NCBI GenBank assembly: GCA_964595645.1
Contig: CAZQQT010000007.1
Coordinates: forward strand, 72,809 to 136,808
Length of the DNA: 64,000 bases
DNA from: an uncultured Thermococci archaeon
Lineage (GTDB): Archaea > Methanobacteriota_B > Thermococci > Methanofastidiosales > B48-G16
Direction of reading: 5' to 3'
The position numbers and the translations under genes are program-made. Every line of letters begins with the position of its first letter. The first letter of the stretch is position 1. Positions 24,438 to 55,642 of this stretch are shown piece by piece. Below the pieces are notes generated by a model. It was not told the DNA's origin. It worked only from the letters and a program-made list of their open reading frames with translations, and did no database searches.

Positions 24438-24788
24438 ATGTACATGGAGATGGAGAGAAAAATGAAAGAAGTAAAAGAAGTGTCGGAGGCAGTGAAAAGC
24501 ATTCTAGACGAGATGGGAGTCGAATATAGAGAAGTGATGTTATTTGGGAGTAGAGCTACAGATATGTCTGAAAAAGAGAGTGATTGGGACCTTTTGGTGG
24601 TCCTTAAGAATCCTATCAATGCAAAAGAAAAGAAAACCCTGTGGGTTGAGATACATGAAAAATTCCATGAACGGTTCCCCTTTACGTCTATCGACATTAT
24701 CGTAAAAGACGCAGACTCGTTTGAGAGGGAAAAAACAATCGCGAATACCATCTCCAATGAAGTGTATTTGGAAGGAATCCGTATATGA
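24438..24788 (+). CDS. Minimal nucleotidyltransferase (MNT) antitoxin of a HEPN/MNT pair
   Basis: Motif (LFGSRATDMSEKESDWDLLVV). Its stop overlaps the start of the downstream HEPN reading frame (ATGA). Confidence 0.7.
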   Translation: MYMEMERKMKEVKEVSEAVKSILDEMGVEYREVMLFGSRATDMSEKESDWDLLVVLKNPINAKEKKTLWVEIHEKFHERFPFTSIDIIVKDADSFEREKTIANTISNEVYLEGIRI

Positions 24789-25048
24789 AAGAAAAAATAG
24801 TACTCCGTTGGATGGAAAAGGCAAGGAATGATCTGAAAGTTGTCGAGCATTAAATAGGCGTAGACGACGCACCCACAGATATGCTCTTATTTCATTGTCA
24901 GTAAGCCGTTGAGAAATACCTAAAGGCCTACTTGACATGGTGCGATGTCCGAATTAGAAAAACACATGATCTTGAAACTATTCTCTATCACTGTATAGAA
25001 AAGGGTAAAAAATTTTATAGCCGAAAGACTAGAGAAAAAAGGATTTAA
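24785..25048 (+). pseudogene. HEPN-domain toxin gene interrupted by two in-frame TAA codons (at 24851-24853 and 24902-24904)
   Basis: A single frame reads MKEKIVLRWMEKARNDLKVVEH*IGVDDAPTDMLLFHCQ*AVEKYLKAYLTWCDVRIRKTHDLETILYHCIEKG.... This matches the HEPN helix pattern (..FHCQQAVEKyLKA.L) with stops replacing expected Q/L codons. Confidence 0.6.
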
Positions 25049-25218
25049 AGGTACTAAAAATAATGAATAGAACGAGAAGATTACTATATAATATTATTTA
25101 TTTCAAAAAGCGTTGAAAACGCACCAAGGCTCTGTATATCAAGACCCTGGTACCTGTAAGTGTACTATTCTGTGATCGGAAAGGAAAACATATTTAACGA
25201 TATACCCACAAAGAGGGT

Positions 25219-26235
25219 ATGGGATCGGTGGAGAACACACGAATTATCGTGATATCAGACACACACCTGGGACACAGCCGCGCGAATGTCACAGCGTTCA
25301 ATGCGTTTCTACAATGGCTCGCCAAGGGAGATCTCCGGGTACGAACAACAGACGGGGAACGGGAGCTGCCGTACCCCGATACGCTTCTCCTCCTCGGTGA
25401 TATCCTCGAACTCTGGGAGCCGGCGAACGACAGTTTCGGATCGGTGGGAGACCAGTCGAAAATGCTGCTGGAGAAACTGATCGAGCTCCCCTGTAAGAAG
25501 ATCTACGTTCTCGGGAACCACGACACGAGTCTCGAGGAGCTGCGGGCGAAGAAGTACCGGCTGCCCGGTGGCGACTTCGAGATATTCTACAACCATTTTC
25601 CCGCAGAGGTCACGGATACGGTGACCATCGGGGCACAGAAGTACTTCTTTATGCACGGCCACCAGTTCGACAAAGACACGCGGAAGTTCGGGAAGTGGGG
25701 TGAGATCGGTCCGTCGATCCTCCTCTCCCTACAGAAAATCAATAAGAAGATGTTTCGTCTTCACGGGTTCGGATCGCTCCTGCTCGCACTACTCTTCTAC
25801 TGTCTCCACCTGTACTTCGGCGATACCTGCCCACTCTACGGGACTGCCGCCCTCTCCCCCTTCTGGGGCACGAATCTCCTCTGGCGGATGGGACGGCCTG
25901 TGGCGAGACGGTTCTGTAAGGCGCGGGAGGAGCGTATCTACTCTATTGTGGAACATGGATGGTACGAGGCTGCACGGGACACCATCGCCGCAGACAACCT
26001 CGTGTTTGCCCACACGCACGCCCCAGGAATCGAACGGGGCGACAGGCTGGAGCGTACCACAGGGAAACGGGTAAACAAGGAGCTGCTGGTGAACAGCGGG
26101 TCGTGGTTTTCCGGGGAGACAATTGAGAACACCTTTCTCTATATCGATGCCGACGCGATCCTCCTTTTTAAATGGGGGGAGATACCGGAGCTCGTGATGA
26201 AGCACTCCGTGAGAGGAGAAGATAAATTTAAATAG
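25219..26235 (+). CDS. Calcineurin-like metallophosphoesterase with a C-terminal membrane segment
   Basis: Motifs (VISDTHLGH, LLLGDILE, GNHD, FMHGHQFD, AHTHAPG). Hydrophobic helix (LLLALLFYCLHLYF). Confidence 0.7.
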   Translation: MGSVENTRIIVISDTHLGHSRANVTAFNAFLQWLAKGDLRVRTTDGERELPYPDTLLLLGDILELWEPANDSFGSVGDQSKMLLEKLIELPCKKIYVLGNHDTSLEELRAKKYRLPGGDFEIFYNHFPAEVTDTVTIGAQKYFFMHGHQFDKDTRKFGKWGEIGPSILLSLQKINKKMFRLHGFGSLLLALLFYCLHLYFGDTCPLYGTAALSPFWGTNLLWRMGRPVARRFCKAREERIYSIVEHGWYEAARDTIAADNLVFAHTHAPGIERGDRLERTTGKRVNKELLVNSGSWFSGETIENTFLYIDADAILLFKWGEIPELVMKHSVRGEDKFK

Positions 26236-26263
26236 AAAAAGTAGAAGAGGAGTATAGAGTCCT

Positions 26264-26518
26264 ATGAAATCAGTAGATATTCCTGAGGATGTACTAGCCT
26301 CAATAAAAATACCGGAAGAAGATATGGAGAAAGTGTTAAAGGTAGAGTTGGCGATAGCTCTTTATCAGCGGGGTATTATTTCACTAGGAAAAGCAAGAAA
26401 AATGGCAGAAATGGACAAATGGGAGTTTTTGGAGGAACTTGGCAAACGAAAAATTTCGCCTCACTACACAGAGAAAGAATTGAAGGAGGATATAAACTTT
26501 GCTAGAGGTAATAAGTAA
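26264..26518 (+). CDS. UPF0175-family small protein, putative antitoxin partner of DUF3368
   Basis: 84-aa ORF (..VELAIALYQRGIISLGKARKMAEMDKWEFLEELGKRKI..) immediately upstream of, and overlapping, a DUF3368 PIN-like gene. Confidence 0.5.
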   Translation: MKSVDIPEDVLASIKIPEEDMEKVLKVELAIALYQRGIISLGKARKMAEMDKWEFLEELGKRKISPHYTEKELKEDINFARGNK

Positions 26519-26986
26519 CTCATCGCCGCTCATCCATCTTGCGAAAATAGGAAGATTAAATCTATTATCATGCTTTTTTGATGGAGTAGTTATTCCTGAA
26601 GCAGTATATAGAGAATGTGTTGTTGAAGGGGAAGATAAAAAGGACGCAAAAAGGATTAAAATGGCGGAATGGATTAGTGTAGAAAAAATAAGAAATAAAG
26701 AGCTAAAAAAAGCATTTATGATGATTTTAGATGAGGGAGAAGCAGAAACAATTGTACTAGCGCTGGAAAAGTCTGCCGATCTTCTCCTCCTAGATGAATA
26801 TGAAGCAAGAAAAGTGGCAAGAACCTACAACTTACCTATTACGGGACCATTGGTATACTGCTAAAGGCAACGTATGGAGGAAAAATACCAACACTGAAGA
26901 ATGAATTGGACAATTTAAGAGGTACGGGTTTCTGGTTGCATGAAGAATTATATAAGAAAATATTGAGAAAAGTAGACGAATTATAA
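26499..26986 (+). pseudogene. DUF3368 PIN-like nuclease gene with a -1 frameshift near 26845
   Basis: Frame 1 gives ...ARKVARTYNLPITGPLVYC*. The conserved C-terminus (LLKATYGGKIPTLKNELDNLRGTGFWLHEELYKKILRKVDEL) continues in the +1 frame. One missing A in GGA(A)CC would restore ITGTIGILLKA. Confidence 0.5.
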
Positions 26987-27003
26987 ATTTAAAACCTCTA
27001 TTC

Positions 27004-28184
27004 TTAGATCTCCGGTTTCGCTTTATACTTGAACTGTTTCTCGTACAGCTGCTCCGCCCGTTCCAGGGTATCCGCATCCTCCGGTGACTTATCGTACCGA
27101 ATACTCGTGATCCGCGCAAACCGGAGCATACCCTGACTCGTACTGCGGACTCTGCTGGATCTCATTAAACGCGACTTCCACCACAAGCTCGGGCCGAACG
27201 TAGACCGTGTACGCATCTTCATCCCGTTTCAACTCCAGCAACGTCTCCGTGAGCTCCTGGAACTGGGCGTCCGTGGGCCCCTTGAAGGTTTTCCCAGCAT
27301 ATGCCCCTTCCGGGTGGCGAGATGGTAGTTGCTCAACCAGTTCTTCCTGCGTCCATGGCCCCACTCCGCCGCGATGATGAGGAGATCCAGGGTCTCGGTG
27401 GGCTTGATCTTTTTCCACGTTTTCTCGCGTTTTCCCGGAATATACGGGCTGTCCAGCTCCTTCACCATCACTCCCTCGTGGCCGGCACTGATCGCCTCCT
27501 CCAGAAAATGACGAGTCTCCTCCTTCTCGTCGGTGATAATCCTCTTTACCATGAAGGATCCGGCGAACTCGCTGAGGAATTCCGTCCGTTTTCTATACAG
27601 TTCATCGAGGAGCGTCTCGCCATTCAAATAGAGAAGATCGAAGAGGTAGAGCTTCAGCGGAATCTCCTCGGTAGCCGCCATCACATCATGGATGCGCCGA
27701 AACCGTCGGAGGAGCTCCTGGAAGGGTAACGGTTTTCCGTCTTTCTCCGCGACGACCTCGAGAACGATCCCCTCGCTGGCACCGATTCGCATCTCTCCAA
27801 AGATCGTCTTCACGATGTGGTCTGCTCCAGCACGGAGGCCTGGCTGAGAAGGCTGGCCACAATCTGCTCCTTCCGTTTCCGCTGCGAGGTGCGCGCGATC
27901 TTGCGGAAGTACTCGGACACATCCGTGATAGTCAGCTCCTGGTCGATCAGGGTTTCCTGGTGTTTTTCCCGTGCCTTCTGGACCGTGTTCCACGAGACAT
28001 CCAGTGTCGTGCTCGACGACTCGGGAAATATCTGGCCGGTGATGAGGAGGACGGCCGGCGCGATCTCATCCTCATTCAACTGCTGCAGAAACGTAGCGAG
28101 GTACTGAATTTTCTCCAGCCGCTTTGTGGTGGACGCCACCCGCTCACAACACGCTGCCAGCGCCCGGAACTTCATGATATCCAC
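27004..28184 (-). pseudogene. Relic of an ATP-dependent DNA ligase. The N-terminal DNA-binding-domain fragment is intact. Most of the DBD and adenylation motif I are deleted. Motifs III-VI and the OB/C-terminus survive across three frames.
   Basis: Fragments: DBD (MDIMKFRALAACCERVASTTKRLEKIQYLATFL..LLITGQIFPE). Motif III-IV (EGIVLEVVAEKDGKPLPFQELLRR, LYLFDLLYLNGETL). Motif V (EGVMVKELDSPYIPGKREKTWKKIKP). OB (LDLLIIAAEWGHGRRKNWLSNYHLA). C-terminus in other frames (PELVVEVAFNEIQQSPQYESGYA; LRFARITSIRYDKSPEDADTLE). Total span ~1.2 kb versus ~1.7 kb for an intact archaeal ligase. Confidence 0.6.
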
Positions 28185-29188: not shown

Positions 29189-29212
29189 AAGAGGGAACGA
29201 AAGTATAAAAGT

Positions 29213-30355
29213 TTACTCAAAAAGGTACGCGTACTCGTTGAACAGCGGATCGTCCATGAACGCTTTCTCCGCCTCCTGGAGACTCATGGGGAGTGAGGTC
29301 ACGCCGTTTTTTTCCCGTGCAGCCTCATCGTACTCGTAAACGTTATCTTTCACAGGATTGGGAAGCGTGCCATCGCCGGAGAGCCCTGCCTTCAACAGGA
29401 AGAAAAAGGCGAGATAGGGGTTGCATGTCGGATCGGGAGAACGTATTTCTATTCGTCCTGAAGGCGGCACACGGATCAGCGCAGAACGGTTGGAGTGTCC
29501 CCAGCAGACGTACTTCGGTGCTTCCTGCTCACCGAACCGCTTGTAGGAGTTCTTCACCGGGTTCGTCACGCGGGTTAACCCCCGGATATGGTAGAGCTGT
29601 CCCGCGATAAACCGTTTCCCACGATCCGTCAGTTTACCGTTATAGAAAAGGTTCTTTCCATTCTTTCGCAGTTCTTGGTGAACGTGCATCCCGGAGCCGG
29701 CCTCATTTTCAAACGGTTTTGGGAGGAACGATACTTCGACACCGTACTGCGTACAGAGCCGCTTTAATGTTTCTCTACAGAAAAGAATGCTATCTGCCAC
29801 GCGCAACGCAGCGGTAGGAAGAAACTCCAGCTCGTACTGGCCTCTTCCGTTCTCATGGTGAAACTTCTCCACAGAAATTCCTTCTCTCTCCAGAACCACA
29901 ACGAGATCGTCGAGGATTCGGTGGCCGAGCGTATCGGCAGTGGTGAGGTACGAGTCTTCATCTATCGGGTCTCCTCCTTGTGTCAGGAAAAACTCCAGCT
30001 CCGGTTTGAGGGTATACGCCGCGTCCTCTTCAGCTAACGCTGTCTTCAGCAGTGAACGTGTGCACTTCTTGTACGGTTTTCCGTCGGGATGGACGATATC
30101 ACACATAAGCCATCCCTCTGTTCTCTCTCCATTCACTATTTTTAAAGAGGCGAGATCCGGTTTGAGCCGCATATCGCTTCGGAAAATGCTGCCGAATCGG
30201 GGAATGGATGAACTGTCAAATCCAATGCCCTCCTCCCTCGCTTTCTCAAACACGGACGGCGTGATGGAAAGTGTGTAGATCCTCCCGGGTACATCGACAA
30301 ATTTCAACCGGATAATCGCAATTTCCTGTACGACATCCTCTATCTCATGATTCAT
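29213..30355 (-). CDS. glnA: Glutamine synthetase-family protein (short GS / GlnA-like, 380 aa)
   Basis: GS catalytic-domain motifs (KPELEFFL, HVHQEL, NPYLAF..). Shorter than canonical GSI, so it could be a gamma-glutamyl-amine ligase paralogue. Confidence 0.7.
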   Translation of the reverse strand: MNHEIEDVVQEIAIIRLKFVDVPGRIYTLSITPSVFEKAREEGIGFDSSSIPRFGSIFRSDMRLKPDLASLKIVNGERTEGWLMCDIVHPDGKPYKKCTRSLLKTALAEEDAAYTLKPELEFFLTQGGDPIDEDSYLTTADTLGHRILDDLVVVLEREGISVEKFHHENGRGQYELEFLPTAALRVADSILFCRETLKRLCTQYGVEVSFLPKPFENEAGSGMHVHQELRKNGKNLFYNGKLTDRGKRFIAGQLYHIRGLTRVTNPVKNSYKRFGEQEAPKYVCWGHSNRSALIRVPPSGRIEIRSPDPTCNPYLAFFFLLKAGLSGDGTLPNPVKDNVYEYDEAAREKNGVTSLPMSLQEAEKAFMDDPLFNEYAYLFE

Positions 30356-30942
30356 GTAATTTATTAGGAGGAAATCTATAAAAAACTTACGAAATAGGTT
30401 TTATAAACATTTGGAGAACTTCAATACGAAAAATGTAGATTTTGTTTATCTTTTATCCAATTTTTTGTGATAGTATGTACCTAACTTAGCAAGAAAAGAA
30501 CATGTGTGAAAAACACCGAGAGTGTCTTGATCACTTTTGCGAAAGGGAAAATGTTTTAGTAAAAAGGCGAAAATATAAGCTTATTTGTGTAAAAAAGCTT
30601 ATAAATAGGCTTATATCAGTAATAGTAGTGATAAAAATGAGAAAAGAAGAAATAACAAAAATCAAAAAATTACGAGGTGAGAACCATGGAAGGATTTGAG
30701 CTTGTGTACATACTGGAACACGAGATGAGACAGAAGAAGAAATAATTATTTTTTTCTCTTTTTTTCTGATCACATTTTTACATCCGCTATCCTGTGATCG
30801 TTTGCCCATCACCTTATGTCATCTTCCGTGTACCTCTATCCTGGTATGATGGACGATCGATGGAGAAGGAAAACCATCTGACATTCATATACTCCCTCAC
30901 TTCAGCGATAAAGTTTTAAATGCTACCATATACGGAATTGTA

Positions 30943-31893: not shown

Positions 31894-31894
31894 A

Positions 31895-33789: not shown

Positions 33790-33874
33790 ATGAACCAAGC
33801 GTGATAACTCGCAACTCTCATCGCCATGCGAAGATACCGATCAAACAAAGGTTATTAACCATTAAAATCAATGA

Positions 33875-38310: not shown

Positions 38311-38565
38311 TCACCTATCTAATCCATGATAGATATCCTTTCTGTGCCCTACTGTCACTATAAACACTTTTTTCTCTTCTTTATCTATTTCAAAAATCAC
38401 TCTGTACTTTCCCACTCTCAAACTCCATAGATCGATGCCCTTCAAATGTTTTCCAAAGGACTGAGGAGTTTTTCCTCACTTTTTTTATCTTATTCTGTTC
38501 TCATTTTCTTTATCTACCCTGATAAGAATTTTTACCGCTTCGTCTGAGAGGAACATCTCATGCAT
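38311..38565 (-). pseudogene. RelE/ParE-family toxin gene disrupted by two frameshifts at homopolymer runs (A7 and T5 on the coding strand)
   Basis: Three frames concatenate to MHEMFLSDEAVKILIRVDKENENRIR / KKVRKNSSVLWKTFEGHRSMEFESGK / YRVIFEIDKEEKKVFIVTVGHRKDIYHGLDR, matching the RelE pattern (..yRiiYeid.e.k.v.il.vghRkdvY). It begins 1 nt after the stop of the upstream antitoxin-like gene. Confidence 0.5.
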
Positions 38566-38566
38566 T

Positions 38567-38752
38567 TTAACACTTATCAGCTATTTTCTCATATTCCTCT
38601 AACGAAACAACATCTCCTTTCTCAATATCTCTCTTACCTCGCCCCACACTCTCCATTAACTCTTTGTCAAAGAGTATACTCAGAATTTCTTCCATCTCCT
38701 CGACTTTCATTTTCAATTCTTTGAACTCTTCTTTTGTAACCTGTACAGACAT
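38567..38752 (-). CDS. Small antitoxin-like protein (61 aa) paired with the RelE relic
   Basis: Acidic helical 61-aa ORF (..EEFKELKMKVEEMEEIL..DIEKGDVVSLEEYEKI..) directly upstream of the RelE-like relic. Confidence 0.45.
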   Translation of the reverse strand: MSVQVTKEEFKELKMKVEEMEEILSILFDKELMESVGRGKRDIEKGDVVSLEEYEKIADKC

Positions 38753-42931: not shown

Positions 42932-42935
42932 TCAA

Positions 42936-45047: not shown

Positions 45048-45068
45048 GAACAGTCCACGTTTTATATA

Positions 45069-47095: not shown

Positions 47096-47258
47096 TTGAT
47101 CACTCTCGAGTATGAAAATTTAGTATCTTCTATAATTTAATATATAAAAAGATTTCGGTTAATATTGGGTATCTCGCTCTCTGTGGGAAAAAACGATGAG
47201 AAAAATATCCTCCCAAAATCCTTTCCTCCAAAATGTGTCAGTAAAAGACAGCAAGAAC

Positions 47259-48524
47259 TCATTTCTCCATTCGTCGTTTGAGCGATCGTGCATGCCCATA
47301 TAACCCTTCCGTCTCTGCAAGCATCCTCGCTATACTACCTATCTTTTCAATTCCCGTTTTCGTCACGCGGAGAGTTGTCTGAAGCTTAACGAAATCTATG
47401 GCACTCAAGCCGCCGGTATACCGCGCACCGGTATTAGTAGGGAGTGTATGGTTGAGTCCGCTGCTGTAATCACCGAGAGCTTCGGCAGCGAAGGATCCGA
47501 CAAAGAGCGATCCGTAGTTTCGTAGGCATGGGATGTACTGGTCGGGATCGCGTAGCTGAAGTTCCAGATGTTCAGGTGCCCTTTTGTTCGCAATTTTAAC
47601 TGCTTCGTCTATTCCCTCGGTAAGAATCATCGCCCCGTGCGCTATCGCCTTCTCAGCAGTGGATCGTGTGGGGAGCCCCTCGAGCTGGTGTTGAAGCTCC
47701 GTTGCAACCCGCTCCGCCAAGGTTACCGATGGTGTAACTAAGAGTGGTAATGCATTGTCATCGTGTTCCGCTTGCGCAAGCAAATCGGCTGCAACGATCG
47801 CCGGATCCGCTGTCTCATCGGCAATGATCATGAGCTCGGTGGGGCCTGCGAGGAAATCGATGCCTACAGCACCAAGCACCTGTTTTTTTGCCGCTGTGAC
47901 GTACGTATTTCCAGGTCCCACGATTTTATCCACCTTTTTGATAGATTCTGTTCCGTAGGCCATAGCCCCTATCGCCTGGACACCTCCCACTTTATACAGT
48001 TCGTCCACGCCGACACGGGCTGCTGCGGTGAGAAGTGCTGGATGGATGGTACCCTCATAGGTTGGGGGTGAGCAGACAGCGATCTCCTTCACTCCTGCAA
48101 CAACAGCTGGAATGCAGCACATAAGCAGTGTAGAGAGAAGCGGTGCCTGCCCGCCGGGAACGTAGACACCCACACGATCTATCGGGATAATTTGCTGGCC
48201 GGCGAAGACCCCAGGGGCGATCTCCATTTCAAATGCGGTGAGCTGGGAGAACTGACGTTCGGCGAACTGTGTGATGTTCCTCGCAGCTGCATCGATTGCG
48301 TCCGCCACAGACGTATCTGTCACGTGAACTGCCTCTCTGAACTCGTGACCCTCTACTCGAAGTTTTTCCAAGACCACATGGTCAAACTCGAGGGTATAGC
48401 GCTTCACTGCCCTATCTCCTTTCTCTCGTACCTCTTGGAGTATTGTTCTCACTGTATCCAATTCCTCAGGCTCCTTGTACGTAAAGAACTCATCCGTGAG
48501 TTCATCTGCAGTAACAATCCTCAT
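47259..48524 (-). CDS. hisD: Histidinol dehydrogenase
   Basis: 421 aa. Conserved HisD regions (..GGQAPLLSTLLMC.., ..AEHDDNA..). Overlaps the upstream gene by 4 nt. Confidence 0.9.
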   Translation of the reverse strand: MRIVTADELTDEFFTYKEPEELDTVRTILQEVREKGDRAVKRYTLEFDHVVLEKLRVEGHEFREAVHVTDTSVADAIDAAARNITQFAERQFSQLTAFEMEIAPGVFAGQQIIPIDRVGVYVPGGQAPLLSTLLMCCIPAVVAGVKEIAVCSPPTYEGTIHPALLTAAARVGVDELYKVGGVQAIGAMAYGTESIKKVDKIVGPGNTYVTAAKKQVLGAVGIDFLAGPTELMIIADETADPAIVAADLLAQAEHDDNALPLLVTPSVTLAERVATELQHQLEGLPTRSTAEKAIAHGAMILTEGIDEAVKIANKRAPEHLELQLRDPDQYIPCLRNYGSLFVGSFAAEALGDYSSGLNHTLPTNTGARYTGGLSAIDFVKLQTTLRVTKTGIEKIGSIARMLAETEGLYGHARSLKRRMEK

Positions 48525-49774
48525 TCTTTTCTCCTCCGTGCAAGCTCATAAAATACCTCATCAAGGGGTATCCCTCGTTTTGCCAGCAAAACAGTAGAAA
48601 AGTATAGGAGATCGGCAATTTCCCATATCACCCCTTCGTCTGTTTCTGCCTCTACTACCTCCTGCGCTTCCTCCAGAATCTTCTCTCTGAGGAGAGGATC
48701 AGTTAGTGTGGCAGTATACGATCCCTGCTGTGGGCTGTTCAGCCTGTCCTGGACTATCTCGTAGAGCTCATACAACTCGTAGTCTCTCTCGCCGAAACAG
48801 GAGTACGATCCCGTATGGCAGGCGACACCTTCCTGCGCTACAGTAGCAAGAATCGTGTCGCCATCGCAGTCTGCCCTCATCCGTATAAGCTCCTGCGTAT
48901 TCCCCGAGGTTTCTCCTTTCTGCCACAGACTATCCCGGGATCGAGAGAAGTACCACATCTTTTCCGTCTCAAACGCTTTTCGAAGCGACTCTTTACTGCT
49001 GTACGCGAGCATGAGCACCTGTCCTGTGGTATCCTGTGTGATTGTTGGAATGAGGTCACTATCCCATCTCAGCGAAGCAATGAAGGCTTCTGTAAGATCT
49101 ATTTTTCCTGTATAGAGTGCCATGCCGAGTTGAATATCCACTCCCATCCGTGAGAGCTCCCGTATCTCCTTCATCGTGCTCACTCCTCCAGCAACGGTGA
49201 TCGGGTTCTCTGTGGTGTGTACCAGCGCTTCCACTACGTCCATGTCAGTTCCCTTCATTGTGCCTTCACGTTCCACGCAGGTAAAGAGGAACTCGGCAGC
49301 GTATGTCTCCAGATGCGAGACTGTCTCAAGGAGATCGAGTCCTGTAGTGTGTCGCCATGCGTCGGTCACGATCTCTCTGTGGAGAGCATCAATGGCAATG
49401 ATCACTCTGTCTCTTCCCACCGCCGAGACCAACGCTTCAAGAAAACCGTCGTTGATCCTGCCGCTATCAAAGGCTTTCGATCCGACGATGATCTTTTTCG
49501 CGCCGAGAGAAATGAGCTCCCGTGCATGTTCCGGTGTCCGTACTCCACCACCCACACGACAGTCCCCAATTCTCAGGATCTTTTTTACTGTCTCAGCATT
49601 ATCGCCTTTGTTCATGGCGGCATCGAGATCGATGACTGCGATCTCACCGTATCTATCAAACTCTCTGGCAAGAGAAAACACATCCTCACGTTCAAGCATC
49701 TTTTTCCTTCCCTGTTGTAACTGCACCGCCTTTCCCTCTTTGAGGTCGATGGAAGGGATGATCATCGTACGCAC
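48521..49774 (-). CDS. hisA/hisIE: Trifunctional fusion HisA-HisI-HisE: ProFAR isomerase, PR-AMP cyclohydrolase and PR-ATP pyrophosphohydrolase in one 417-aa polypeptide
   Basis: HisA barrel (MIIPSIDLKEGKAVQLQQG...GGGVRT...VAGGVST). HisI (SRSRDSLWQKGETSGNTQELIRMRADCDGDTILATVAQEGVACHTGSYSCF). HisE (GSYTATLTDPLLREKILEEAQEVVEA...IWEIADLLYFSTVLL). Confidence 0.8.
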   Translation of the reverse strand: MRTMIIPSIDLKEGKAVQLQQGRKKMLEREDVFSLAREFDRYGEIAVIDLDAAMNKGDNAETVKKILRIGDCRVGGGVRTPEHARELISLGAKKIIVGSKAFDSGRINDGFLEALVSAVGRDRVIIAIDALHREIVTDAWRHTTGLDLLETVSHLETYAAEFLFTCVEREGTMKGTDMDVVEALVHTTENPITVAGGVSTMKEIRELSRMGVDIQLGMALYTGKIDLTEAFIASLRWDSDLIPTITQDTTGQVLMLAYSSKESLRKAFETEKMWYFSRSRDSLWQKGETSGNTQELIRMRADCDGDTILATVAQEGVACHTGSYSCFGERDYELYELYEIVQDRLNSPQQGSYTATLTDPLLREKILEEAQEVVEAETDEGVIWEIADLLYFSTVLLAKRGIPLDEVFYELARRRKE

Positions 49775-50514
49775 ACTCCTCTTTTCTTTAGATACGTCTT
49801 GATCTCCTGTACTGTGTACTCACCGTCGTGAAGAAGGGATGCCAGGAGAACGGCATCTGTCTTTCCGTTTTCCACTACCTCGTATATTTGTTCGAGGGTT
49901 CCAGCCCCACCTGATGCAATAACTGGGATGTTCACGCTCTCAGAGACTGTCCTCGTGAGCTCAAGATCGTAGCCTTGCTGCGTTCCGTCTCTATCCATAG
50001 AGTTGAGCAGGATCTCGCCTGCACCAAGCGCTTCGCCTTTTTTTGCCCAGGAAATAACATCAACCCCCGAATTATTCCGTCCACCATGGGTATAGGCGTA
50101 CCATCGGGTCCCTCGTTTTTTCGCGTCGACAGAGAGTACGATACATTGGGATCCAAAAGTCTGTGCCCCGCGAGAGAGAAGATCGGGGTTGTGGAGGGCG
50201 GAAGTGCATAGTGCAACTTTATCAGCGCCTGCATTCAGAACAGCACGCATATCCTCAACAGTTCGCAATCCTCCACCAACTGTGAGCGGAATGAAGACCT
50301 CTCTCGACACGCCCCTCACTACATCGATAAGGATCTCTCTACTTTTATAGGAGGCTCCAATATCGAGAAAGATGAGTTCATCGGCTCCTTGATCATTGTA
50401 CCGTCTCGCAAATTCCATTGGATCGCCTACATCGCGGAGTTCCTTAAATCTTACACCCTTTCTCACTCTTCCCTCGTCTACATCGAGACAGGGAATAATC
50501 CGTGTTGTTAACAT
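49762..50514 (-). CDS. hisF: Imidazole glycerol phosphate synthase cyclase subunit
   Basis: IIPCLDV...GADELIFLDI...GGGLRT...ASGGAG motifs. Confidence 0.9.
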   Translation of the reverse strand: MLTTRIIPCLDVDEGRVRKGVRFKELRDVGDPMEFARRYNDQGADELIFLDIGASYKSREILIDVVRGVSREVFIPLTVGGGLRTVEDMRAVLNAGADKVALCTSALHNPDLLSRGAQTFGSQCIVLSVDAKKRGTRWYAYTHGGRNNSGVDVISWAKKGEALGAGEILLNSMDRDGTQQGYDLELTRTVSESVNIPVIASGGAGTLEQIYEVVENGKTDAVLLASLLHDGEYTVQEIKTYLKKRGVCVR

Positions 50515-51104
50515 TGTCTCACCCAGTTTTTCAGGAGGTTAAGCCCAATTTTTCCGCTCTTTTCCGGGTGAAACTGCACAGCGTAGATCTTACCCTTTCC
50601 AATCACAGAAGGGTAGGAGACACCATACTCGGTGGTGCCGATCACAATGGACTCCTCTGTACGAACGTAGTACCCGTGCAAAAAGTAAAAAAAGGAACTA
50701 TCATCGATTCCTTCCATTAACGGCGAGTTCCGTTTTATAGAAACGTTGTTCCACCCTATCTGTGGTACTTTATACCTTTCAAACTCAACGACATTGCCGC
50801 GGAAAATGCCAAACCCCCTCGTATCCTCCGCCTCTTCACTTGTTTCAAAAAGGAGCTGCATGCCGAGGCAGATCCCTAAAAACGGCCTATCCGCGCGTAT
50901 CCAGTCATCAATATGCTCATACATGCCTGAAAACACTAGCCGGAGAATCGCAGAACGGAATGCACCGACACCTGGAAGAATCAGGCCATCTATCCCTCTA
51001 AAATCTTTTTTCGATTCGACAACTTTGTATTGTGTTCCCAAGTATTCTAGCGCTTTTTTTACTGAAAGGAGATTTCCAGCTCCATAATCTACTATTCCAA
51101 TCAT
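50508..51104 (-). CDS. hisH: Imidazole glycerol phosphate synthase glutaminase subunit
   Basis: Class I GATase (MIGIVDYGAGNL..LPGVGAF..GICLGMQLL..HPE). Confidence 0.9.
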   Translation of the reverse strand: MIGIVDYGAGNLLSVKKALEYLGTQYKVVESKKDFRGIDGLILPGVGAFRSAILRLVFSGMYEHIDDWIRADRPFLGICLGMQLLFETSEEAEDTRGFGIFRGNVVEFERYKVPQIGWNNVSIKRNSPLMEGIDDSSFFYFLHGYYVRTEESIVIGTTEYGVSYPSVIGKGKIYAVQFHPEKSGKIGLNLLKNWVRQC

Positions 51105-51688
51105 ACTATCCCCTTTGTGCTTGGTATAGCGTTTTTTCGCCGTTTTTCAATAGTGCACGCCCTCTTCAACGAATGTCCGAAGGCTTTAAAGATTGCCTCG
51201 ATCTTGTGGTGATCGGAACGGCCGTAATACACGTGCACATGAAGTGTGGCCCCCAACGATCCAACAATCCCCTGAAAAAAATCGTTTAACAACTCAGTAG
51301 AGAGATCACCAACTCTCTTGTTTTCAAAGGTTGCATGCATGGTGAGATGGGTTCTGTTGGATATATCGACGGCAGTCATTGCCAACGCGTCATCCATGGG
51401 GCAGACAAAGAACCCCGTCCTACAAATGCCTCTTTTATCACGCAATGCTTTCCTAAAAGCTTCGCCCAGTACAATTCCTGTATCTTCGACAGTGTGGTGC
51501 TGATCCACCGCTGTATCACCGTGTACTTCCATTTCCAGATCAAAGACTCCATGCTTCGCAAAGGTCTCCAACATGTGCGTTAAAAACCCTATAGGTGTTT
51601 TTACAGTGCTCTCTCCCGTTCCATCAAGGTTGAGCTCTATTCGTATCTGTGTCTCCTTTGTGTTTCTCTCAACAACAGCAGTTCTCAT
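51101..51688 (-). CDS. hisB: Imidazoleglycerol-phosphate dehydratase
   Basis: IGPD motifs (RNTKETQIRIELNLDG, HMLE..HG.FDL, HHTVEDTGI). Confidence 0.85.
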   Translation of the reverse strand: MRTAVVERNTKETQIRIELNLDGTGESTVKTPIGFLTHMLETFAKHGVFDLEMEVHGDTAVDQHHTVEDTGIVLGEAFRKALRDKRGICRTGFFVCPMDDALAMTAVDISNRTHLTMHATFENKRVGDLSTELLNDFFQGIVGSLGATLHVHVYYGRSDHHKIEAIFKAFGHSLKRACTIEKRRKNAIPSTKGIV

Positions 51689-52752
51689 ATTGACACATCT
51701 CCCATTCCTTTTTCCTCTCGGGGTAGAATATCTCTCAGTACGCTAAGAAACGCGGTATTTTCGCTGCGGGTACCGACAGTTACTCGAAGATATCCGTCCA
51801 TTACTGGCAATGAGCTGAGATCCTTCACCAGTATTCCCCTTTTCTCTAAGGCGTTTTTGATACACTCGGCATCCTGTCCCACATTGACCAAGATGAAATT
51901 TGTAGCCGTAGTACGCGTGTTAACGCCCAGTTTTCTCAATGCACTGGAAAGAAACGCCTTTTCCTTCTGTATATGGTTGACCATGCGACCTATATAGGCA
52001 GTATCGGCAAGTGCTGCTCTCCCTGCAGCAACAGCTGCAGCATTAACAGAAAAAGGAGAAACCACCTTTCGAAGCTCGTCAATGATCTCTTCACTCGCTA
52101 CGGCCATACCCAGCCGCAGACCGGCCAGCCCAAATGCCTTGGAAAAGCTGTGGACTGTAATGAGGTTTTCGAACTCCTCGACGAGATCGACGTACGACTC
52201 ACCGGCAAAGTGGTAGTAGGTTTCATCCAGCACGACCAGTGAGTTGCTCATTTCCTCCATGATGTCAACGAACTCATCTTTGTCGATGCACGTGCCGGTG
52301 GGGCTTCCTGGATTCACAACAACCACAAGCTTCCCTGACTGTGATACGAGGCGTTTCGTTGGAAAGGAAAGATCCTCATTGTACATCACAGGTACCACCT
52401 GTGCTCCTCGTATCTGTGCCAAGATTTCGTACATGGGAAATGTCGGAGAGGGGAGTATCGCCCTATCTCCCTTTCCAATGTACGCGTTCATCGCCGCTTG
52501 AATCGCTCCATTGGCACCATTGGTGAGAAGAATATTTTCAGGGGGTACTGCTAAATACGTTGAAATTTCCTCAACTAACTGAGAATAATCCGGGTATAAG
52601 CTTATATCATTGGAATCCAGAGCGTGAAGAGCTTCTAGTGCCTTCGATGAGCAGCCTCTAGTATTCTCGTTGAGGTTCAGCCGTATAGCAGATTTTCGTA
52701 ATTTAGGTGGTAGATACGGTGAAACCTCAGCCAGTTCCTCACGAGCTCTCAC
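51685..52752 (-). CDS. hisC: Histidinol-phosphate aminotransferase
   Basis: Class II aminotransferase, 355 aa, PLP-lysine region (HSFSKAFGLAGLRLG). Operon context. Confidence 0.85.
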   Translation of the reverse strand: MRAREELAEVSPYLPPKLRKSAIRLNLNENTRGCSSKALEALHALDSNDISLYPDYSQLVEEISTYLAVPPENILLTNGANGAIQAAMNAYIGKGDRAILPSPTFPMYEILAQIRGAQVVPVMYNEDLSFPTKRLVSQSGKLVVVVNPGSPTGTCIDKDEFVDIMEEMSNSLVVLDETYYHFAGESYVDLVEEFENLITVHSFSKAFGLAGLRLGMAVASEEIIDELRKVVSPFSVNAAAVAAGRAALADTAYIGRMVNHIQKEKAFLSSALRKLGVNTRTTATNFILVNVGQDAECIKNALEKRGILVKDLSSLPVMDGYLRVTVGTRSENTAFLSVLRDILPREEKGMGDVSI

Positions 52753-53603
52753 AGGACCACCTTCCGCAACTCGTACTCCAGAATGTCGGTCGCACCGAGG
52801 TTTTTGAGTTGTGGTATCAGTTTTGCTGTTTCCGTCCGTTTCACCGCAATTTTTACCGCGTACCCTTTCTCCCCATAGAGTGGTGCCATAGTTGGAGATC
52901 GCATGCAGGGGAGACTCTGAATGATTTCATCGGCTCTCTCTTGAGGAACGTTCATCTCAAGCATGACCCGTTCCCGGGCGTCAAGTACCGCCTCAAACAG
53001 CGTCGTTAATTCGTCGATCTTCTCTCGTTTCCAGGGATCCTCCAACGCCTTTCTACTTCCGATAAATCGAGTGGATGAGTTCAAAAGTGTGCTGACAACG
53101 TGGAGGTTGTGCTTCTCGAGTGTCCGTCCAGTGGAGGTGTTATCAACGATCATATCAGCATCGTCAGGAGGAAAAACCTCTGTTGCACCGTGGGTCCGTA
53201 AAAATACGTAGTCGTATCCTTCTTTCTTAAGAAAATTCGTGGTGATTCTCTCGTACTCAGACGCAACGACGATCCTTCTCTCATGGAGATTTTCGTGCAG
53301 AAGATCCTCCGGTACCGCCGCCACAATTTGTACGGGATCGAACCCGAGATCCAGTACCTCCACCACATCCGCACCTGTTTCAAGTACCCAATCATGTCCA
53401 GTAACCCCGACATCGTGCGATCCCAGCTCGAGAAGTGTTGGGATATTCTGCGGTTTCATTATTTTCATTTCAAGCTCTGTGTCACTGACAGTAGGTCTGT
53501 ACGTTCGCTCCTTTACCTCTATCCGTATGCCTGCCTCGTTCAGAAGGCCGATCACATTCCCATGAATCCTACCCTTCGGTATAACAATTCGTAATGTTGT
53601 CAC
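52749..53603 (-). CDS. hisG: ATP phosphoribosyltransferase (long form)
   Basis: MTTLRIVIPKGRIHG..., 284 aa with a C-terminal regulatory domain. First gene of the minus-strand operon. Confidence 0.85.
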   Translation of the reverse strand: MTTLRIVIPKGRIHGNVIGLLNEAGIRIEVKERTYRPTVSDTELEMKIMKPQNIPTLLELGSHDVGVTGHDWVLETGADVVEVLDLGFDPVQIVAAVPEDLLHENLHERRIVVASEYERITTNFLKKEGYDYVFLRTHGATEVFPPDDADMIVDNTSTGRTLEKHNLHVVSTLLNSSTRFIGSRKALEDPWKREKIDELTTLFEAVLDARERVMLEMNVPQERADEIIQSLPCMRSPTMAPLYGEKGYAVKIAVKRTETAKLIPQLKNLGATDILEYELRKVVL

Positions 53604-53909
53604 AAAAGCACCTCCCCTCTTAAAAAGGAGATTAGTTATCGATGGTGATGCAGTCCCGACACTACCTTAGAAATACCAATGTTCGTAGGTGTACATTGTT
53701 GGTCAGGATACATCACGCCTCTTTCTCTTTGTCCCTTTATAAATGTTTTCCCAGCATAAAGTTTTAAAGGATGTACCTATTCTCATTCGCATGCTCCGTT
53801 GAAGAAAAAAGAGAGCGTTTTTTCTACATTTTTATTACTTTAATAAACTATTTCTGAATTAGAACGCGACGAAGTATTTTTCAGTGCTTTTGAGGCATAT
53901 AAGAGAAAA

Positions 53910-54746
53910 TTGGAAAAAACACAACAGCTTCTGAGAATGAGAAAATCTTTTAAAGACATATATGCAGAAGAGAATAAAGAGAGTACTATGAAAATCTTTA
54001 TTATAGCAGCTGCACTGACTCTTACTGTTGTTGCGATCTTTGTGTATACTCAGGAGGAACCACCCATGGAAGAGAAAAACATGACTCATAAAATAGAAAT
54101 GCCTCCCATCGACCTCGATACGCCAGCTGAGACGAAAACGGCAACCTTCGCCCTCGGCTGCTTTTGGGGTGCTGAGTCCACCTTTGGCTGCGTTCCGGGT
54201 GTGATCAGAACTCGTGTCGGATATGCGGGAGGCACCACCGAGAATCCAACCTATCGTAATATCGACGATCATATTGAAACCGTCCAGATCGAGTACGATC
54301 CCACGATGGTATCCTACGAAGAACTCCTCGAGATCTTCTGGAACGCGCATACCCCCACGTCACAACCGTGGAAACGGCAGTACATGTCTGTAATATTCAC
54401 TCATACAAACGAGCAAAGAGAACTGGCTTCTTCAACACGAAATCGCGAGGCGAAAATCCAGAGAGAGATCGCGACAGAAATCATAGCCTTCTCGAAATTT
54501 TATCCTGCTGAGGACTACCACCAAAAGTACCATCTCCAGCAGTATACGAAGCTTATGAACGAGTTTACAACTGTCTACCCAAATTCTAAGGATTTTATCA
54601 ACTCTACCGCCGTAACACGAACGAATGGATATGTGGGTGGGTGTGGCACCCTGGCAGATCTCCAAGAAGAGATAGACCAGCTCGGACTCTCAAAAGAGGG
54701 GAAGAAGTATCTGTTAGAGATTGTGAGTGGAAGAAAATACCGTTAA
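53910..54746 (+). CDS. msrA: Peptide methionine sulfoxide reductase MsrA with an N-terminal TM/signal segment and a ~75-aa C-terminal extension
   Basis: Catalytic GCFWG motif (ATFALGCFWGAESTFG). The physiological start may be the internal Met at 53988 (MKIFIIAAALTLTVVAIFVY). Confidence 0.75.
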   Translation: MEKTQQLLRMRKSFKDIYAEENKESTMKIFIIAAALTLTVVAIFVYTQEEPPMEEKNMTHKIEMPPIDLDTPAETKTATFALGCFWGAESTFGCVPGVIRTRVGYAGGTTENPTYRNIDDHIETVQIEYDPTMVSYEELLEIFWNAHTPTSQPWKRQYMSVIFTHTNEQRELASSTRNREAKIQREIATEIIAFSKFYPAEDYHQKYHLQQYTKLMNEFTTVYPNSKDFINSTAVTRTNGYVGGCGTLADLQEEIDQLGLSKEGKKYLLEIVSGRKYR

Positions 54747-54840
54747 ATAAGATGAAAAAAAAGAATAGAGAGGAGAGAGCACGGCACGGTATGAAAAAAA
54801 CACGAAGGGGGGCGATACGATAGAAAAGGAACGAGGAGCC

Positions 54841-55326
54841 ATGGACAGTCAGTTGAAATGGAGATGGGGTATCGGCATGACCTTAATGATCGTGGAAATC
54901 CTCCTTTTTATCATCTACCATAGACCAGCCATCGTCTGGCTCGGCAATCTCGGCTGGATACTCCTCTGGATTGCAGCATTTTTGGCAGTAATTCCTGTTT
55001 TCACTCTCCGCAAACGAGGAGGAGTGACAGAGGGGAAAAGTTATATTGAGACCACGACACTCGTGGATACTGGACTCTACGGGGTGGTACGACATCCGCA
55101 ATATCTCTCCTTTATGCTCATCTGTGTCGGCATTATCCTCGCGGCTCAGGGATGGATAGTGACAGCTGTTGGCATTCCTGCTACGCTCGCGATCTATCTC
55201 GTCATTCGCAGTCAGGATCGGTTCCTCGTTACGCAGTTTGGTGATGCGTACACAGACTATATGGAACGGGTACCGCGGGTAAACATTCTACTCGGTATTA
55301 TCCGCTGGTTGCAGAGGAAAAAATAA
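54841..55326 (+). CDS. Isoprenylcysteine carboxyl methyltransferase-like (ICMT/PEMT family) membrane methyltransferase
   Basis: Family motif (GLYGVVRHPQYLSFMLICVG) and 4 TM helices. Confidence 0.6.
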   Translation: MDSQLKWRWGIGMTLMIVEILLFIIYHRPAIVWLGNLGWILLWIAAFLAVIPVFTLRKRGGVTEGKSYIETTTLVDTGLYGVVRHPQYLSFMLICVGIILAAQGWIVTAVGIPATLAIYLVIRSQDRFLVTQFGDAYTDYMERVPRVNILLGIIRWLQRKK

Positions 55327-55453
55327 ATAGAGAAATAAAGAGCATGCATAAAAACCGCATTCTTGTTACCAATATCCTGAATTACATTATCGGTATCCTT
55401 TTCCTCGTTTAAAAGCTCTCTCAATCTATACAGTACCTTCTTCAACAAAATAC

Positions 55454-55642
55454 TCAAATCGATGATCCCCCCCCTCTCAGTCGATACAAATCGTGTTTCT
55501 TCCCCTTTACTTTTTTTATATCTGCTCCACTTCTCGACGTATAGGGATCGTTCATGAGCTCTTTTAATCGTTCTTTGAGCCTCTCCTTCTCATTGGTTCT
55601 ATCAAGATACGTTTTTACTCGTGGATGTACCCGTATCTCCAT
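55454..55642 (-). pseudogene. RelE/ParE-like toxin gene truncated at a C8/G8 homopolymer (55467..55474)
   Basis: N-terminal 55 aa are RelE-like (MEIRVHPRVKTYLDRTNEKERLKERLKELMNDPY...KKVKGKKHDLYRLR), then GGGSSI*. Removing one G gives ...LYRLRGGDHRFEYFVEEGTV, closer to the RelE core (RvGdyRiiY). Confidence 0.4.

What the first reader, a model, noticed from the sequence alone, without database searches (positions are those of the whole stretch)
24785..55642. Every toxin or effector gene in the window is interrupted; several lesions sit in homopolymers
Six independent lesions:
- HEPN: two nonsense codons.
- RelE at 38311-38565: frameshifts at an A7 run and a T5 run.
- RelE-like at 55454-55642: truncated at a C8 run.
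- DUF3368 PIN: 1-nt deletion.
- McrC: frameshift in a CCC/GG context.
- DNA ligase: large deletion.

There are two explanations. One is systematic homopolymer miscalls, as in pyrosequencing or nanopore data, which would also affect other genes. The other is genuine selection against toxin activity, or slipped-strand phase variation of toxins, for example at the C8 tract. The HEPN and ligase lesions cannot be homopolymer artefacts.
Basis: seen in the sequence. Interest (0 to 1): 0.55.

Follow-up and report, generated by a model that had tools for sequence, protein, structure and literature searches.

The report
Decayed toxin genes beside intact antitoxins
In this piece of an uncultured archaeon's genome, all four small toxin genes are mutationally dead while their partner antitoxin genes are intact, which is the ordinary, already described way toxin-antitoxin pairs erode and not a sequencing fault or a genetic switch.

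Summary
All six lesions exist, but several details and the headline are wrong.

**What is broken.** The window is a Theionarchaea/Methanofastidiosia-like contig. All four toxin-antitoxin toxins are broken and all four partner antitoxins are intact:
- HEPN
- a RelE/ParE toxin at 38311-38565
- a second RelE/ParE toxin at 55387-55642
- a PIN-DUF3368 toxin

An McrC-like nuclease (5436-6807, outside the stated range), the DNA ligase and an unreported nucleotidyltransferase remnant are also pseudogenes.

**What is not broken.** "Every effector" is false. HsdR, a restriction-enzyme-like gene, a PIN_3 defence protein and the McrB-like ATPase are intact.

**Lesion types.**
- There are five in-frame stop codons.
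- The ligase carries a 342-nt deletion plus three small deletions.
- Only two lesions sit in long homopolymers: the C8 run and an A7 run in the McrC-like gene.
- The 36 long homopolymers inside intact genes are all in frame.
- The truncated reading frames are on record from two sources (NCBI and Logan).

**The C8 tract cannot be a working switch.** The same gene also has Trp72→TAG and a Val57→Gly change that created the run.

**Best reading.** This is genuine toxin-first erosion of mobile toxin-antitoxin cassettes, a known process. The one surprising item is the dead ligase at the conserved FEN1-ligase locus.

The parts
24785..25048 (+). HEPN toxin pseudogene. It has in-frame TAA codons at 24851-24853 and 24902-24904, and the C-terminal third of the domain is absent. 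The Rx4H motif (RIRKTH) is still recognisable.
   Evidence: sequence and coordinates. Pfam HEPN E=5e-12, profile positions 3-74 of 117; no remainder found downstream.
24438..24788 (+). Intact MNT-type nucleotidyltransferase, the antitoxin partner of the HEPN gene. Its stop codon overlaps the HEPN start (ATGA).
   Evidence: Polbeta and NTP_transf_2. (weak MntA_antitoxin match)..
24159..24392 (+). Remnant of a second nucleotidyltransferase gene. It has no start codon and a frameshift near 24264-24284.
   Evidence: frames. (NTP_transf_2, profile positions 2-43 of 93 only).
26264..26518 (+). Intact UPF0175 (COG2886) antitoxin.
   Evidence: UPF0175 E=4e-28, profile positions 1-73 of 75. PMC2701414 describes this as a PIN-associated antitoxin family.
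26499..26986 (+). PIN-DUF3368 toxin pseudogene. It has a single 1-nt deletion in ACGGG^ACC (26843-26845).
   Evidence: (DUF3368 1-46 of 46 lies in the second frame); homologue L013 matches the repaired protein over residues 1-159 and reads ...ITGTIG... across the site.
27004..28175 (-). ATP-dependent DNA ligase pseudogene. Lesions: -1 at about 27819-27820, an in-frame loss of 114 codons (junction about 27757-27762, taking out the start of the adenylation domain), -1 at about 27286-27295, and -2 at about 27124-27125.
   Evidence: in relatives the intact 506-aa ligase sits immediately after FEN1.
38311..38565 (-). RelE/ParE toxin pseudogene. It has in-frame TAA (38485-38487) and TGA (38476-38478) codons, and the reading frame is unchanged on both sides.
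   Evidence: (ParE_toxin E=2e-8). (intact 88-aa homologue P0184 on L012). (changing the run lengths cannot reopen the frame).
38567..38752 (-). Intact 61-aa antitoxin gene upstream of the RelE/ParE pseudogene. It matches no Pfam family.
   Evidence: 74% identical to the gene upstream of the intact toxin on L012.
55387..55642 (-). Second RelE/ParE-family toxin pseudogene. It carries Val57 to Gly, a +1 G giving the G8/C8 run (55467-55474), and Trp72 to TAG (55426-55428).
   Evidence: nearly all listed homologues, and all ten full-length ones aligned, are 84 aa..
55643..55840 (-). Intact DUF7557 antitoxin.
   Evidence: DUF7557 E=8e-12.
5436..6807 (+). McrC-like nuclease pseudogene. It has a single frameshift on the A7 run at 6215-6221. 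It lies outside the finding's coordinates.
   Evidence: most full-length homologues are about 420-500 aa and match only up to query residues 259-274. (junction 6218-6238). (the model of homologue P0187 hits McrC chains).
2449..5430 (+). Intact McrB-like AAA+ protein, partner of the McrC-like gene.
   Evidence: AAA_5, profile positions 1-139 of 139. (McrB model 173-393 of 459, E=1e-18). (TTG start).
7457..17313 (+). Intact defence genes that contradict 'every effector is interrupted': a REase_II-like gene, HsdM, PDC-M11A (PIN_3), PDC-M11B (ASCH), HsdS, HsdR and a YgjP-like protease.

Best explanation
These are real, inherited inactivating mutations, not errors or a regulatory device.

Four small, low-G+C toxin-antitoxin cassettes were acquired by this archaeon and are now eroding in the usual order:
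- MNT-HEPN
- two antitoxin-RelE/ParE pairs
- UPF0175-PIN

A cell tolerates or benefits from losing a toxin, so toxins collect stop codons and small indels. The antitoxin cannot be lost while the toxin still works, so it outlasts the toxin. The result is dead toxins next to intact antitoxins.

The McrC-like nuclease and the ligase are separate cases of ordinary gene decay in the same genome. The homopolymer context of two lesions (C8, A7) reflects the normal tendency of replication slippage to make indels at runs. The C8 run itself was created by a substitution in an already dispensable gene.

Shown: the lesions, their types, their restriction to these genes, and the intact partners. Inferred: the order of events, and that the antitoxins are still functional.
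For: - All four toxins are broken and all four antitoxins are intact. Toxins against all other genes gives Fisher p = 5e-5.
- Lesions per gene: HEPN at least 3, RelE at 38 kb 2, RelE at 55 kb 3, ligase 4.
- Five lesions are substitutions to TAA, TGA or TAG. All three stop codons are used as normal terminators in the window (26 TGA, 22 TAA, 8 TAG).
- The ligase lesions are all deletions.
- 36 long homopolymers in 55 kb of intact genes are in frame.
- About 45 housekeeping genes give near-full-length Pfam matches.
- The truncated ligase, PIN, McrC-like and RelE reading frames are recorded from both an NCBI genome and a Logan assembly, several of them on two contigs.
- The cassettes have 35-42% G+C against 45-57% for core genes, as expected for mobile modules.
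- The only close PIN relative found (L013) has an independent frameshift in the toxin and an intact antitoxin.
- Toxin-first erosion is documented in Photorhabdus: toxin alone pseudogenised in 185 copies, both genes in 186, antitoxin absent or defective beside an apparently intact toxin in only 8 (PMC13617665).
Against: - No read-level data were available, so the two single-lesion genes (McrC-like at A7, PIN at G3) could still be errors or very recent mutations.
- The NCBI and Logan assemblies may derive from the same reads.
- The nucleotidyltransferase remnant at 24159-24392 is a decayed antitoxin-type gene, so decay is not strictly limited to toxins.
- The available homologues are too distant (synonymous sites saturated) to show relaxed selection on the toxins or continuing constraint on the antitoxins.
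- A dead replicative ligase is unexpected for a viable archaeon unless another ligase exists outside the window.
Confidence: 0.8

Rival explanations
1. The lesions are systematic homopolymer miscalls from pyrosequencing, ion-semiconductor or nanopore data, so the genes are really intact.
For: Two lesions sit on the longest kind of run: C8 in the RelE gene at 55 kb (the only G/C run of 8 in the window) and A7 in the McrC-like gene. The PIN gene and two ligase indels sit in short runs of 3-5 bases.
Against: - Five lesions are base substitutions to stop codons and one is a 342-nt deletion.
- The TAA in the RelE gene at 38 kb survives any length change of the adjacent runs.
- 36 runs of at least 7 A/T or at least 6 G/C in intact genes, including A9, three A8 and G7, are all in frame. 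Runs carrying lesions: 2 of 7 in broken genes against 0 of 36 in intact genes, p = 0.02.
- The same truncated reading frames are recorded from two sources.
Confidence: 0.06
2. This is slipped-strand phase variation. The C8 tract, and perhaps the A7 tract, switches the toxin or nuclease on and off in the population.
For: C8 is the longest G/C run in the window, and removing one base restores the frame. The McrC-like gene is restored by A7 to A6. In bacteria, restriction systems are classic phase-variable loci (general knowledge).
Against: - With the frame restored, the RelE gene still ends at a TAG that replaces a Trp invariant in the aligned full-length homologues, and it carries Gly at a position where ten of eleven aligned full-length homologues have Val and one has Ile.
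- Every homologue has GTx-GGx there, with no tract, so the run is a recent by-product and not a conserved device.
- A7 runs are common: there are 38 A/T runs of exactly 7 in the window.
- No length variant was found in JGI metagenomes, although nothing from this organism matched at all.
Confidence: 0.04
3. This is programmed recoding: the stops and frameshifts are read through (stop-codon reassignment, pyrrolysine at TAG, ribosomal frameshifting), so full-length proteins are made.
For: One of the stops is a TAG, and some archaea decode TAG as pyrrolysine (general knowledge).
Against: - The interrupting codons are a mixture of TAA (3), TGA (1) and TAG (1). All three also terminate ordinary genes in the window.
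- The TAG replaces Trp, not a pyrrolysine site.
- The frameshifts are of different sign and context.
- The ligase lacks the start of its adenylation domain outright.
Confidence: 0.02
4. This is active disarmament rather than neutral decay. Toxin loss was selected because the toxins were costly, and the antitoxins are kept by selection as protection against incoming related toxins ('anti-addiction').
For: All four antitoxins are intact, with full-length family matches where a family exists. The UPF0175 antitoxin has the lowest non-synonymous divergence of the four genes compared (dN 0.08 against 0.18 for its toxin). The anti-addiction idea exists in the toxin-antitoxin literature (general knowledge; selective reasons for loss are discussed in PMC13617665).
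Against: - The same pattern is expected from neutral toxin-first decay, because the antitoxin simply has had less time to decay.
- One antitoxin-type gene (24159-24392) has decayed.
- The divergence estimates are saturated and cannot separate the two models.
Confidence: 0.25

Closest known systems
Toxin-first erosion of chromosomal type II toxin-antitoxin systems (Photorhabdus survey, PMC13617665; the ccdO157 decay study, Mine et al. 2009, is cited in that paper)
   Same: The toxin is pseudogenised by truncations, stop codons and small indels while the antitoxin reading frame persists. The modules sit in variable, low-G+C spots.
   Different: Here the host is an uncultured archaeon of the Theionarchaea/Methanofastidiosia group. 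All four modules in 64 kb are at the toxin-dead, antitoxin-intact stage. No functional assays exist.
HEPN-MNT toxin-antitoxin pairs (Shewanella SO_3166/SO_3165, PMC4621449; abundant in archaea, PMC2701414)
   Same: An MNT gene is followed by an overlapping HEPN gene with an Rx4H motif.
   Different: The HEPN copy has two stop codons and lacks its C-terminal third, so it cannot be an active RNase.
RelE/ParE-family mRNA interferase toxins with upstream small antitoxins
   Same: Both genes have the size (84-88 aa), gene order and conserved RLRVGD-YR core of the family.
   Different: Both are interrupted. The 55-kb gene matches no Pfam model and is recognised only through 84-aa homologues that NCBI names RelE/ParE.
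UPF0175 (COG2886) - PIN pairs of archaea and cyanobacteria (PMC2701414)
   Same: A UPF0175 antitoxin overlaps a PIN protein that ends in a DUF3368 domain.
   Different: The PIN gene has a 1-nt deletion. The nearest relative found has its own, different frameshift.
McrBC restriction system
   Same: An AAA_5/McrB-like NTPase gene is followed after a 5-nt gap by a gene whose family folds like McrC and carries a conserved D...EVK nuclease motif.
   Different: The McrB-like protein has a long unrelated N-terminus of about 690 aa. The McrC-like family misses the Pfam, NCBIfam and PADLOC McrC models. The window's copy is frameshifted.
Homopolymer contingency loci (phase-variable genes of Neisseria, Haemophilus, Campylobacter)
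   Same: A poly-G/C run inside a reading frame sets the frame.
   Different: The run is not conserved in homologues, and the gene carries a further stop codon, so changing the tract length cannot give a working protein.

Membership tests
RelE/ParE toxin (gene at 38311-38565) | Match to the ParE_toxin/RelE profile and full-length similarity to an intact family member | tested here: met
   Pfam PF05016 E=2e-8, above the cut-off. 71% identity over 95% of the length to the intact 88-aa P0184, which JGI names RelE.
RelE/ParE toxin (gene at 38311-38565) | Uninterrupted reading frame of about 85-90 codons | tested here: not met
   TAA at codon 27 and TGA at codon 30.
RelE/ParE toxin (gene at 55387-55642) | Profile match to RelE/ParE models | tested here: not met
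   No Pfam hit. Only a sub-threshold YoeB match in NCBIfam.
RelE/ParE toxin (gene at 55387-55642) | Full-length homology to proteins annotated as the family, with the conserved YRLRVGD-RF core | tested here: met
   63 homologues, nearly all 84 aa, up to 83% identical. Several are named RelE/ParE by NCBI or JGI.
RelE/ParE toxin (gene at 55387-55642) | Uninterrupted reading frame | tested here: not met
   +1 in the G8 run and TAG at the Trp72 position.
HEPN-MNT toxin-antitoxin pair | An MNT nucleotidyltransferase gene adjacent to a HEPN gene with an Rx4-6H motif | tested here: met
   Polbeta/NTP_transf_2 and HEPN matches. The genes share a 4-nt overlap and RIRKTH is present.
HEPN-MNT toxin-antitoxin pair | Complete HEPN domain | tested here: not met
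   Two TAA codons. Only profile positions 3-74 of 117 are present.
UPF0175-PIN(DUF3368) toxin-antitoxin pair | A UPF0175 antitoxin followed by a PIN protein ending in DUF3368 | tested here: met
   UPF0175 E=4e-28. DUF3368 E=1e-14 on the repaired protein. The same architecture is seen on L013.
UPF0175-PIN(DUF3368) toxin-antitoxin pair | PIN domain recognisable by profile in the N-terminal part | tested here: inconclusive
   Only a weak PIN-TPR-GreABC match (E=0.01, below the cut-off).
McrC (nuclease subunit of McrBC) | Match to McrC sequence models | tested here: not met
   No hit in Pfam, PADLOC or NCBIfam for the repaired gene or for the intact homologue P0187. A family profile finds nothing in PDB sequences.
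McrC (nuclease subunit of McrBC) | McrC fold | tested here: met
   The AlphaFold model of P0187 (52% identical to the window's gene; pLDDT 89.9) has McrC chains as its top four Foldseek hits: 6hz4_M, 6ut6_G, 6ut7_G and 6ut5_G (E from 8e-8 to 1e-2, probability 0.98-1.0). TM-scores are low, 0.21-0.29.
McrC (nuclease subunit of McrBC) | Encoded directly downstream of an McrB-type AAA+ NTPase, with a PD-(D/E)xK-type motif in the C-terminal domain | tested here: met
   AAA_5 and the McrB model match the upstream gene. Invariant P348-D349 and nearly invariant E369-V370-K371 in the family alignment.
ATP-dependent DNA ligase | N-terminal DNA-binding, adenylation and OB-fold domains in one frame, including the adenylation core | tested here: not met
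   Homologues are 503-509 aa with all three domains. The window lacks residues 141-254 and changes frame three times.
Phase-variable contingency locus | The repeat tract is conserved in the gene family, and an in-frame tract length yields a functional protein | tested here: not met
   No tract in any of 11 aligned homologues. The in-frame version still ends at the TAG.
Phase-variable contingency locus | Tract-length polymorphism in the population | not testable with these tools
   No reads were available. An exact-flank scan of JGI metagenomes found no copy of the locus at all.

The most novel reading that the evidence does not exclude
The canonical replicative ATP-dependent DNA ligase, at its conserved position directly after FEN1, is dead in this archaeon. 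The lineage would then join Okazaki fragments with a different, possibly acquired or unrecognised, ligase. Together with four dead toxins and a dead McrC-like gene, about 11% of the genes in the window are pseudogenes, which could mark a lineage undergoing unusual genome decay.
Probability: 0.12. Interest if true: 0.6.

Novelty: new member of a known kind. Interest (0 to 1): 0.25.

Why it matters
The finding mainly serves as a clean archaeal example of a process described in bacteria: chromosomal toxin-antitoxin cassettes die toxin first and leave orphan antitoxins.

Practical consequences:
- Counts of 'toxin-antitoxin systems' or defence genes made from domain hits in such metagenome-derived genomes will overstate functional capacity.
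- Homopolymer context alone is a poor guide to whether a frameshift is an artefact.

The dead ligase deserves a look at the rest of the genome, because losing the canonical replicative ligase would be unusual.

Tried and rejected
**Searches that found nothing or little**
- Exact look-ups of window proteins in the contig index, intended to find the source record and other strains. Five look-ups found nothing. The proteins are nevertheless listed in the protein collection from NCBI and Logan.
- A genome-contig scan with FEN1 found only distant Thermoprotei relatives, at 42-45% identity.
- A metagenome scan for the C8 flanks with a variable gap gave no match, so there are no population data.
- A viral-contig scan with the MNT antitoxin found nothing.
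- PDB sequence searches with the HEPN gene and with the McrC-like family profile found nothing.
- Six-frame Pfam scans of four of the larger intergenic stretches, looking for hidden toxin remnants and the missing HEPN C-terminus, found nothing.
- There are no Rfam families or tRNAs in the window.
- The HEPN, MNT and PIN genes have no relatives in the ligase-linked loci L004-L011.

**Analyses without enough power**
- dN/dS between the window and L012 or L013: synonymous sites are saturated (pS 0.6-0.7), so the estimates cannot show relaxed selection.

**Ideas rejected**
- Pyrrolysine or stop-codon reassignment.
- The apparent absence of hsdS, an ABC ATPase gene and hisG in my first crude gene map. 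This was an artefact of my overlap filter, and all three genes are intact.

Full report
**What the window is**

The repaired ligase sequence finds its best relatives (70-75% identity, 503-509 aa) in genomes labelled Theionarchaea or Methanofastidiosia. The window is therefore from an uncultured euryarchaeon of that group.

The window's own reading frames are held in the protein collection from an NCBI genome and a Logan assembly, on a contig of 143,122 bases.

I drew up a gene map of 65 genes from open reading frames and profile searches:
- The first 18 kb is a low-G+C defence island. It holds McrB-like and McrC-like genes, a REase_II-like gene, a type I restriction-modification operon with embedded PDC-M11A/B candidate genes, a YgjP-like protease and RadC.
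- The rest is core metabolism: ABC transporters, FEN1, glutamine synthetase, photolyase, aldehyde:ferredoxin oxidoreductase, a complete his operon and GlmS. Four small two-gene cassettes are scattered through it.

**Checking the six lesions**

*HEPN (24785-25048).* The gene overlaps the stop codon of an intact MNT nucleotidyltransferase gene. It has TAA at codons 23 and 40. With the stops masked it matches Pfam HEPN at E=5e-12, but only profile positions 3-74 of 117. Nothing resembling the rest is found downstream in any frame. Both stops are TAA, so pyrrolysine is not an issue.

*RelE at 38311-38565.* This gene matches ParE_toxin and is 71% identical to an intact 88-aa protein, P0184.
- The reading frame is the same before and after the lesion.
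- The lesion is TAA...TGA four codons apart.
- Relative to the homologue's DNA there is also an in-frame 6-nt difference.
- I tried every combination of lengths 5-9 for the A7 run and 3-7 for the A5 run. The TAA, which sits at the 5' edge of the run, survives all of them.
At least one base substitution is required. TGA differs by one base from the Leu codon TTA of the homologue.

*RelE-like at 55 kb.* This gene has no Pfam match. Once one G is removed, however, it aligns end to end with 84-aa proteins that NCBI and JGI name RelE/ParE, at up to 83% identity. The alignment shows three lesions:
- Val57 (Val in ten and Ile in one of the eleven aligned full-length homologues) is Gly. This turns GTG-GGG into a G run.
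- The run carries one extra G (G8, which is C8 on the + strand).
- Trp72, invariant in those homologues, is TAG.

*PIN-DUF3368.* The first frame ends at 26864, and the DUF3368 domain lies entirely in the next frame. A metagenome relative (L013) matches the repaired protein over residues 1-159 and reads ACA-GGT-ACT where the window has ACG-GG-ACC, so one base is missing. L013 has its own frameshift elsewhere in the toxin, at an A6 run, and an intact UPF0175 gene.

*'McrC'.* This gene is at 5436-6807, outside the stated coordinates.
- Its 275-aa first fragment finds 359 relatives. Most of the full-length ones are about 420-500 aa, and they match only up to query residues 259-274.
- tblastn places the frame change between 6218 and 6238, on the A7 run at 6215-6221. 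The CCC/GG context is 35 bases further on.
- Sequence models do not call the family McrC.
- A confident AlphaFold model of an intact relative has McrC chains of the E. coli and Thermococcus McrBC structures as its top four hits.
- The upstream gene matches AAA_5 and the McrB model.
- I accept 'McrC-like'.

*Ligase.* Aligned to 506-aa homologues, the gene shows four lesions:
- it lacks residues 141-254 in frame (the start of the adenylation domain)
- it changes frame at about 27819 (CC, -1)
- it changes frame at about 27290 (GGGAAAA, -1)
- it changes frame at about 27124 (GCTC, -2)

In eight loci from relatives, an intact ligase follows FEN1 with overlapping stop and start codons, exactly as here. 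This is the conserved locus, not an obvious extra copy.

**What is not interrupted**

The following give full-length matches:
- HsdR (1004 aa, all domains), HsdM and HsdS
- the REase_II-like gene
- PDC-M11A (PIN_3; model positions 1-500 of 501)
- PDC-M11B
- the McrB-like ATPase

'Every toxin or effector' is therefore wrong. The defensible statement is narrower and stronger: all four toxin-antitoxin toxins are dead and all four partner antitoxins are intact.

**Artefact or real?**

- Of roughly fourteen lesions, only two lie in runs of 7 or more bases. Five are substitutions to stop codons, and one is a 342-nt deletion.
- Intact genes contain 36 long runs (at least 7 A/T or at least 6 G/C), among them A9, three A8 and G7. 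All are in frame.
- About 45 housekeeping genes match their Pfam models essentially end to end.
- TAA, TGA and TAG all terminate normal genes, so no codon is reassigned.
- The truncated ligase, PIN, McrC-like and RelE reading frames are on record from two sources, several of them on two contigs.
- Gene-level enrichment: 4 of 4 toxins against 3 of 61 other genes, p = 5e-5. Toxins against antitoxins gives p = 0.03.

Systematic miscalling is rejected. It remains possible only for the two single-lesion genes.

**Phase variation**

The C8 tract cannot switch a functional toxin on. The in-frame version still lacks the last 13 residues because of Trp72 to TAG. The tract itself is a lineage-specific accident that no homologue shares. 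No population data could be obtained.

**Best explanation**

- The cassettes have 35-42% G+C against 45-57% for core genes. This fits mobile modules that were acquired and are now eroding.
- The pattern of a toxin dead with several hits beside an intact antitoxin is the two-step decay described for bacterial chromosomes. In Photorhabdus, toxin-only pseudogenes (185) vastly outnumber cases of a defective or absent antitoxin beside an intact toxin (8) (PMC13617665).
- UPF0175-PIN and MNT-HEPN are established or predicted toxin-antitoxin pairs (PMC2701414). The abstract of PMC4621449, listed, reports that a HEPN protein inhibits growth.
- Whether toxin loss was selected or neutral cannot be told. 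The only homologues available are too distant.

**What remains odd**

A dead replicative ligase at the conserved FEN1-ligase locus requires another ligase somewhere outside the window. The neighbouring glutamine synthetase lacks about 39 C-terminal residues relative to solved archaeal enzymes. These two points, not the toxins, are where a surprise could still hide.

**Verdict**

The artefact and phase-variation readings are not supported. Genuine toxin-first decay is supported. This is an ordinary instance of a known process in a little-studied archaeal lineage.

Noticed in passing
window 24159-24392 (+): A second, decayed nucleotidyltransferase (MNT-type) gene lies directly after the stop codon of the ABC transporter gene. 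It has no start codon and a frameshift near 24270. It is an antitoxin-type gene that has decayed, unlike the other four.
   Followed up: partly
window 29213-30355 (-): The glutamine synthetase is only 380 aa. It aligns to solved archaeal enzymes up to their residue 403 of 442, so about 39 C-terminal residues are missing. Its stop codon lies 24 nt from the FEN1 start. It may be a truncated gene or a naturally short paralogue.
   Followed up: partly
L013 446-926 (metagenome contig Ga0190349_1011782): The only close relative of the PIN toxin found elsewhere is also frameshifted, at a different place (an A6 run where the window has A5). Its UPF0175 antitoxin is intact. This is an independent example of the same pattern, or an error in that contig.
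   Followed up: partly
window 10360-12253 (+): Two genes matching the PADLOC candidate defence system PDC-M11 sit between hsdM and hsdS inside the type I restriction operon. They are M11A (503 aa with an N-terminal PIN_3 domain) and M11B (ASCH domain).
   Followed up: no
window 48521-49774 (-): A single gene fuses a HisA-like barrel with PRA-CH and PRA-PH (HisI and HisE). It lies inside a contiguous his operon, hisG-C-B-H-F-(A/IE)-D, at 47259-53603.
   Followed up: no
window 45767-47095 (-): A 442-aa secreted-looking protein is built of about eight repeats of a motif like '...IVVW.D.RNG....DIYGY...'. It has no Pfam match.
   Followed up: no
window 1-18000 versus the rest: The defence island has about 38-40% G+C with strong positive GC and AT skew on the coding strand. 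Core genes range from 45 to 57% G+C (third-position G+C up to 0.8). The four toxin-antitoxin cassettes have 35-42%. Relatives' FEN1-ligase loci are about 39-40% G+C, so this lineage is markedly richer in G+C than its nearest sequenced relatives.
   Followed up: partly
window 27745-27771 (-): The 342-nt ligase deletion joins ...EGIVLE to VVAEKDG.... In homologues the left edge reads IVLEAIAKASG and the right edge EVVAEKDG. The similarity of the two edges suggests a deletion between short similar sequences.
   Followed up: no
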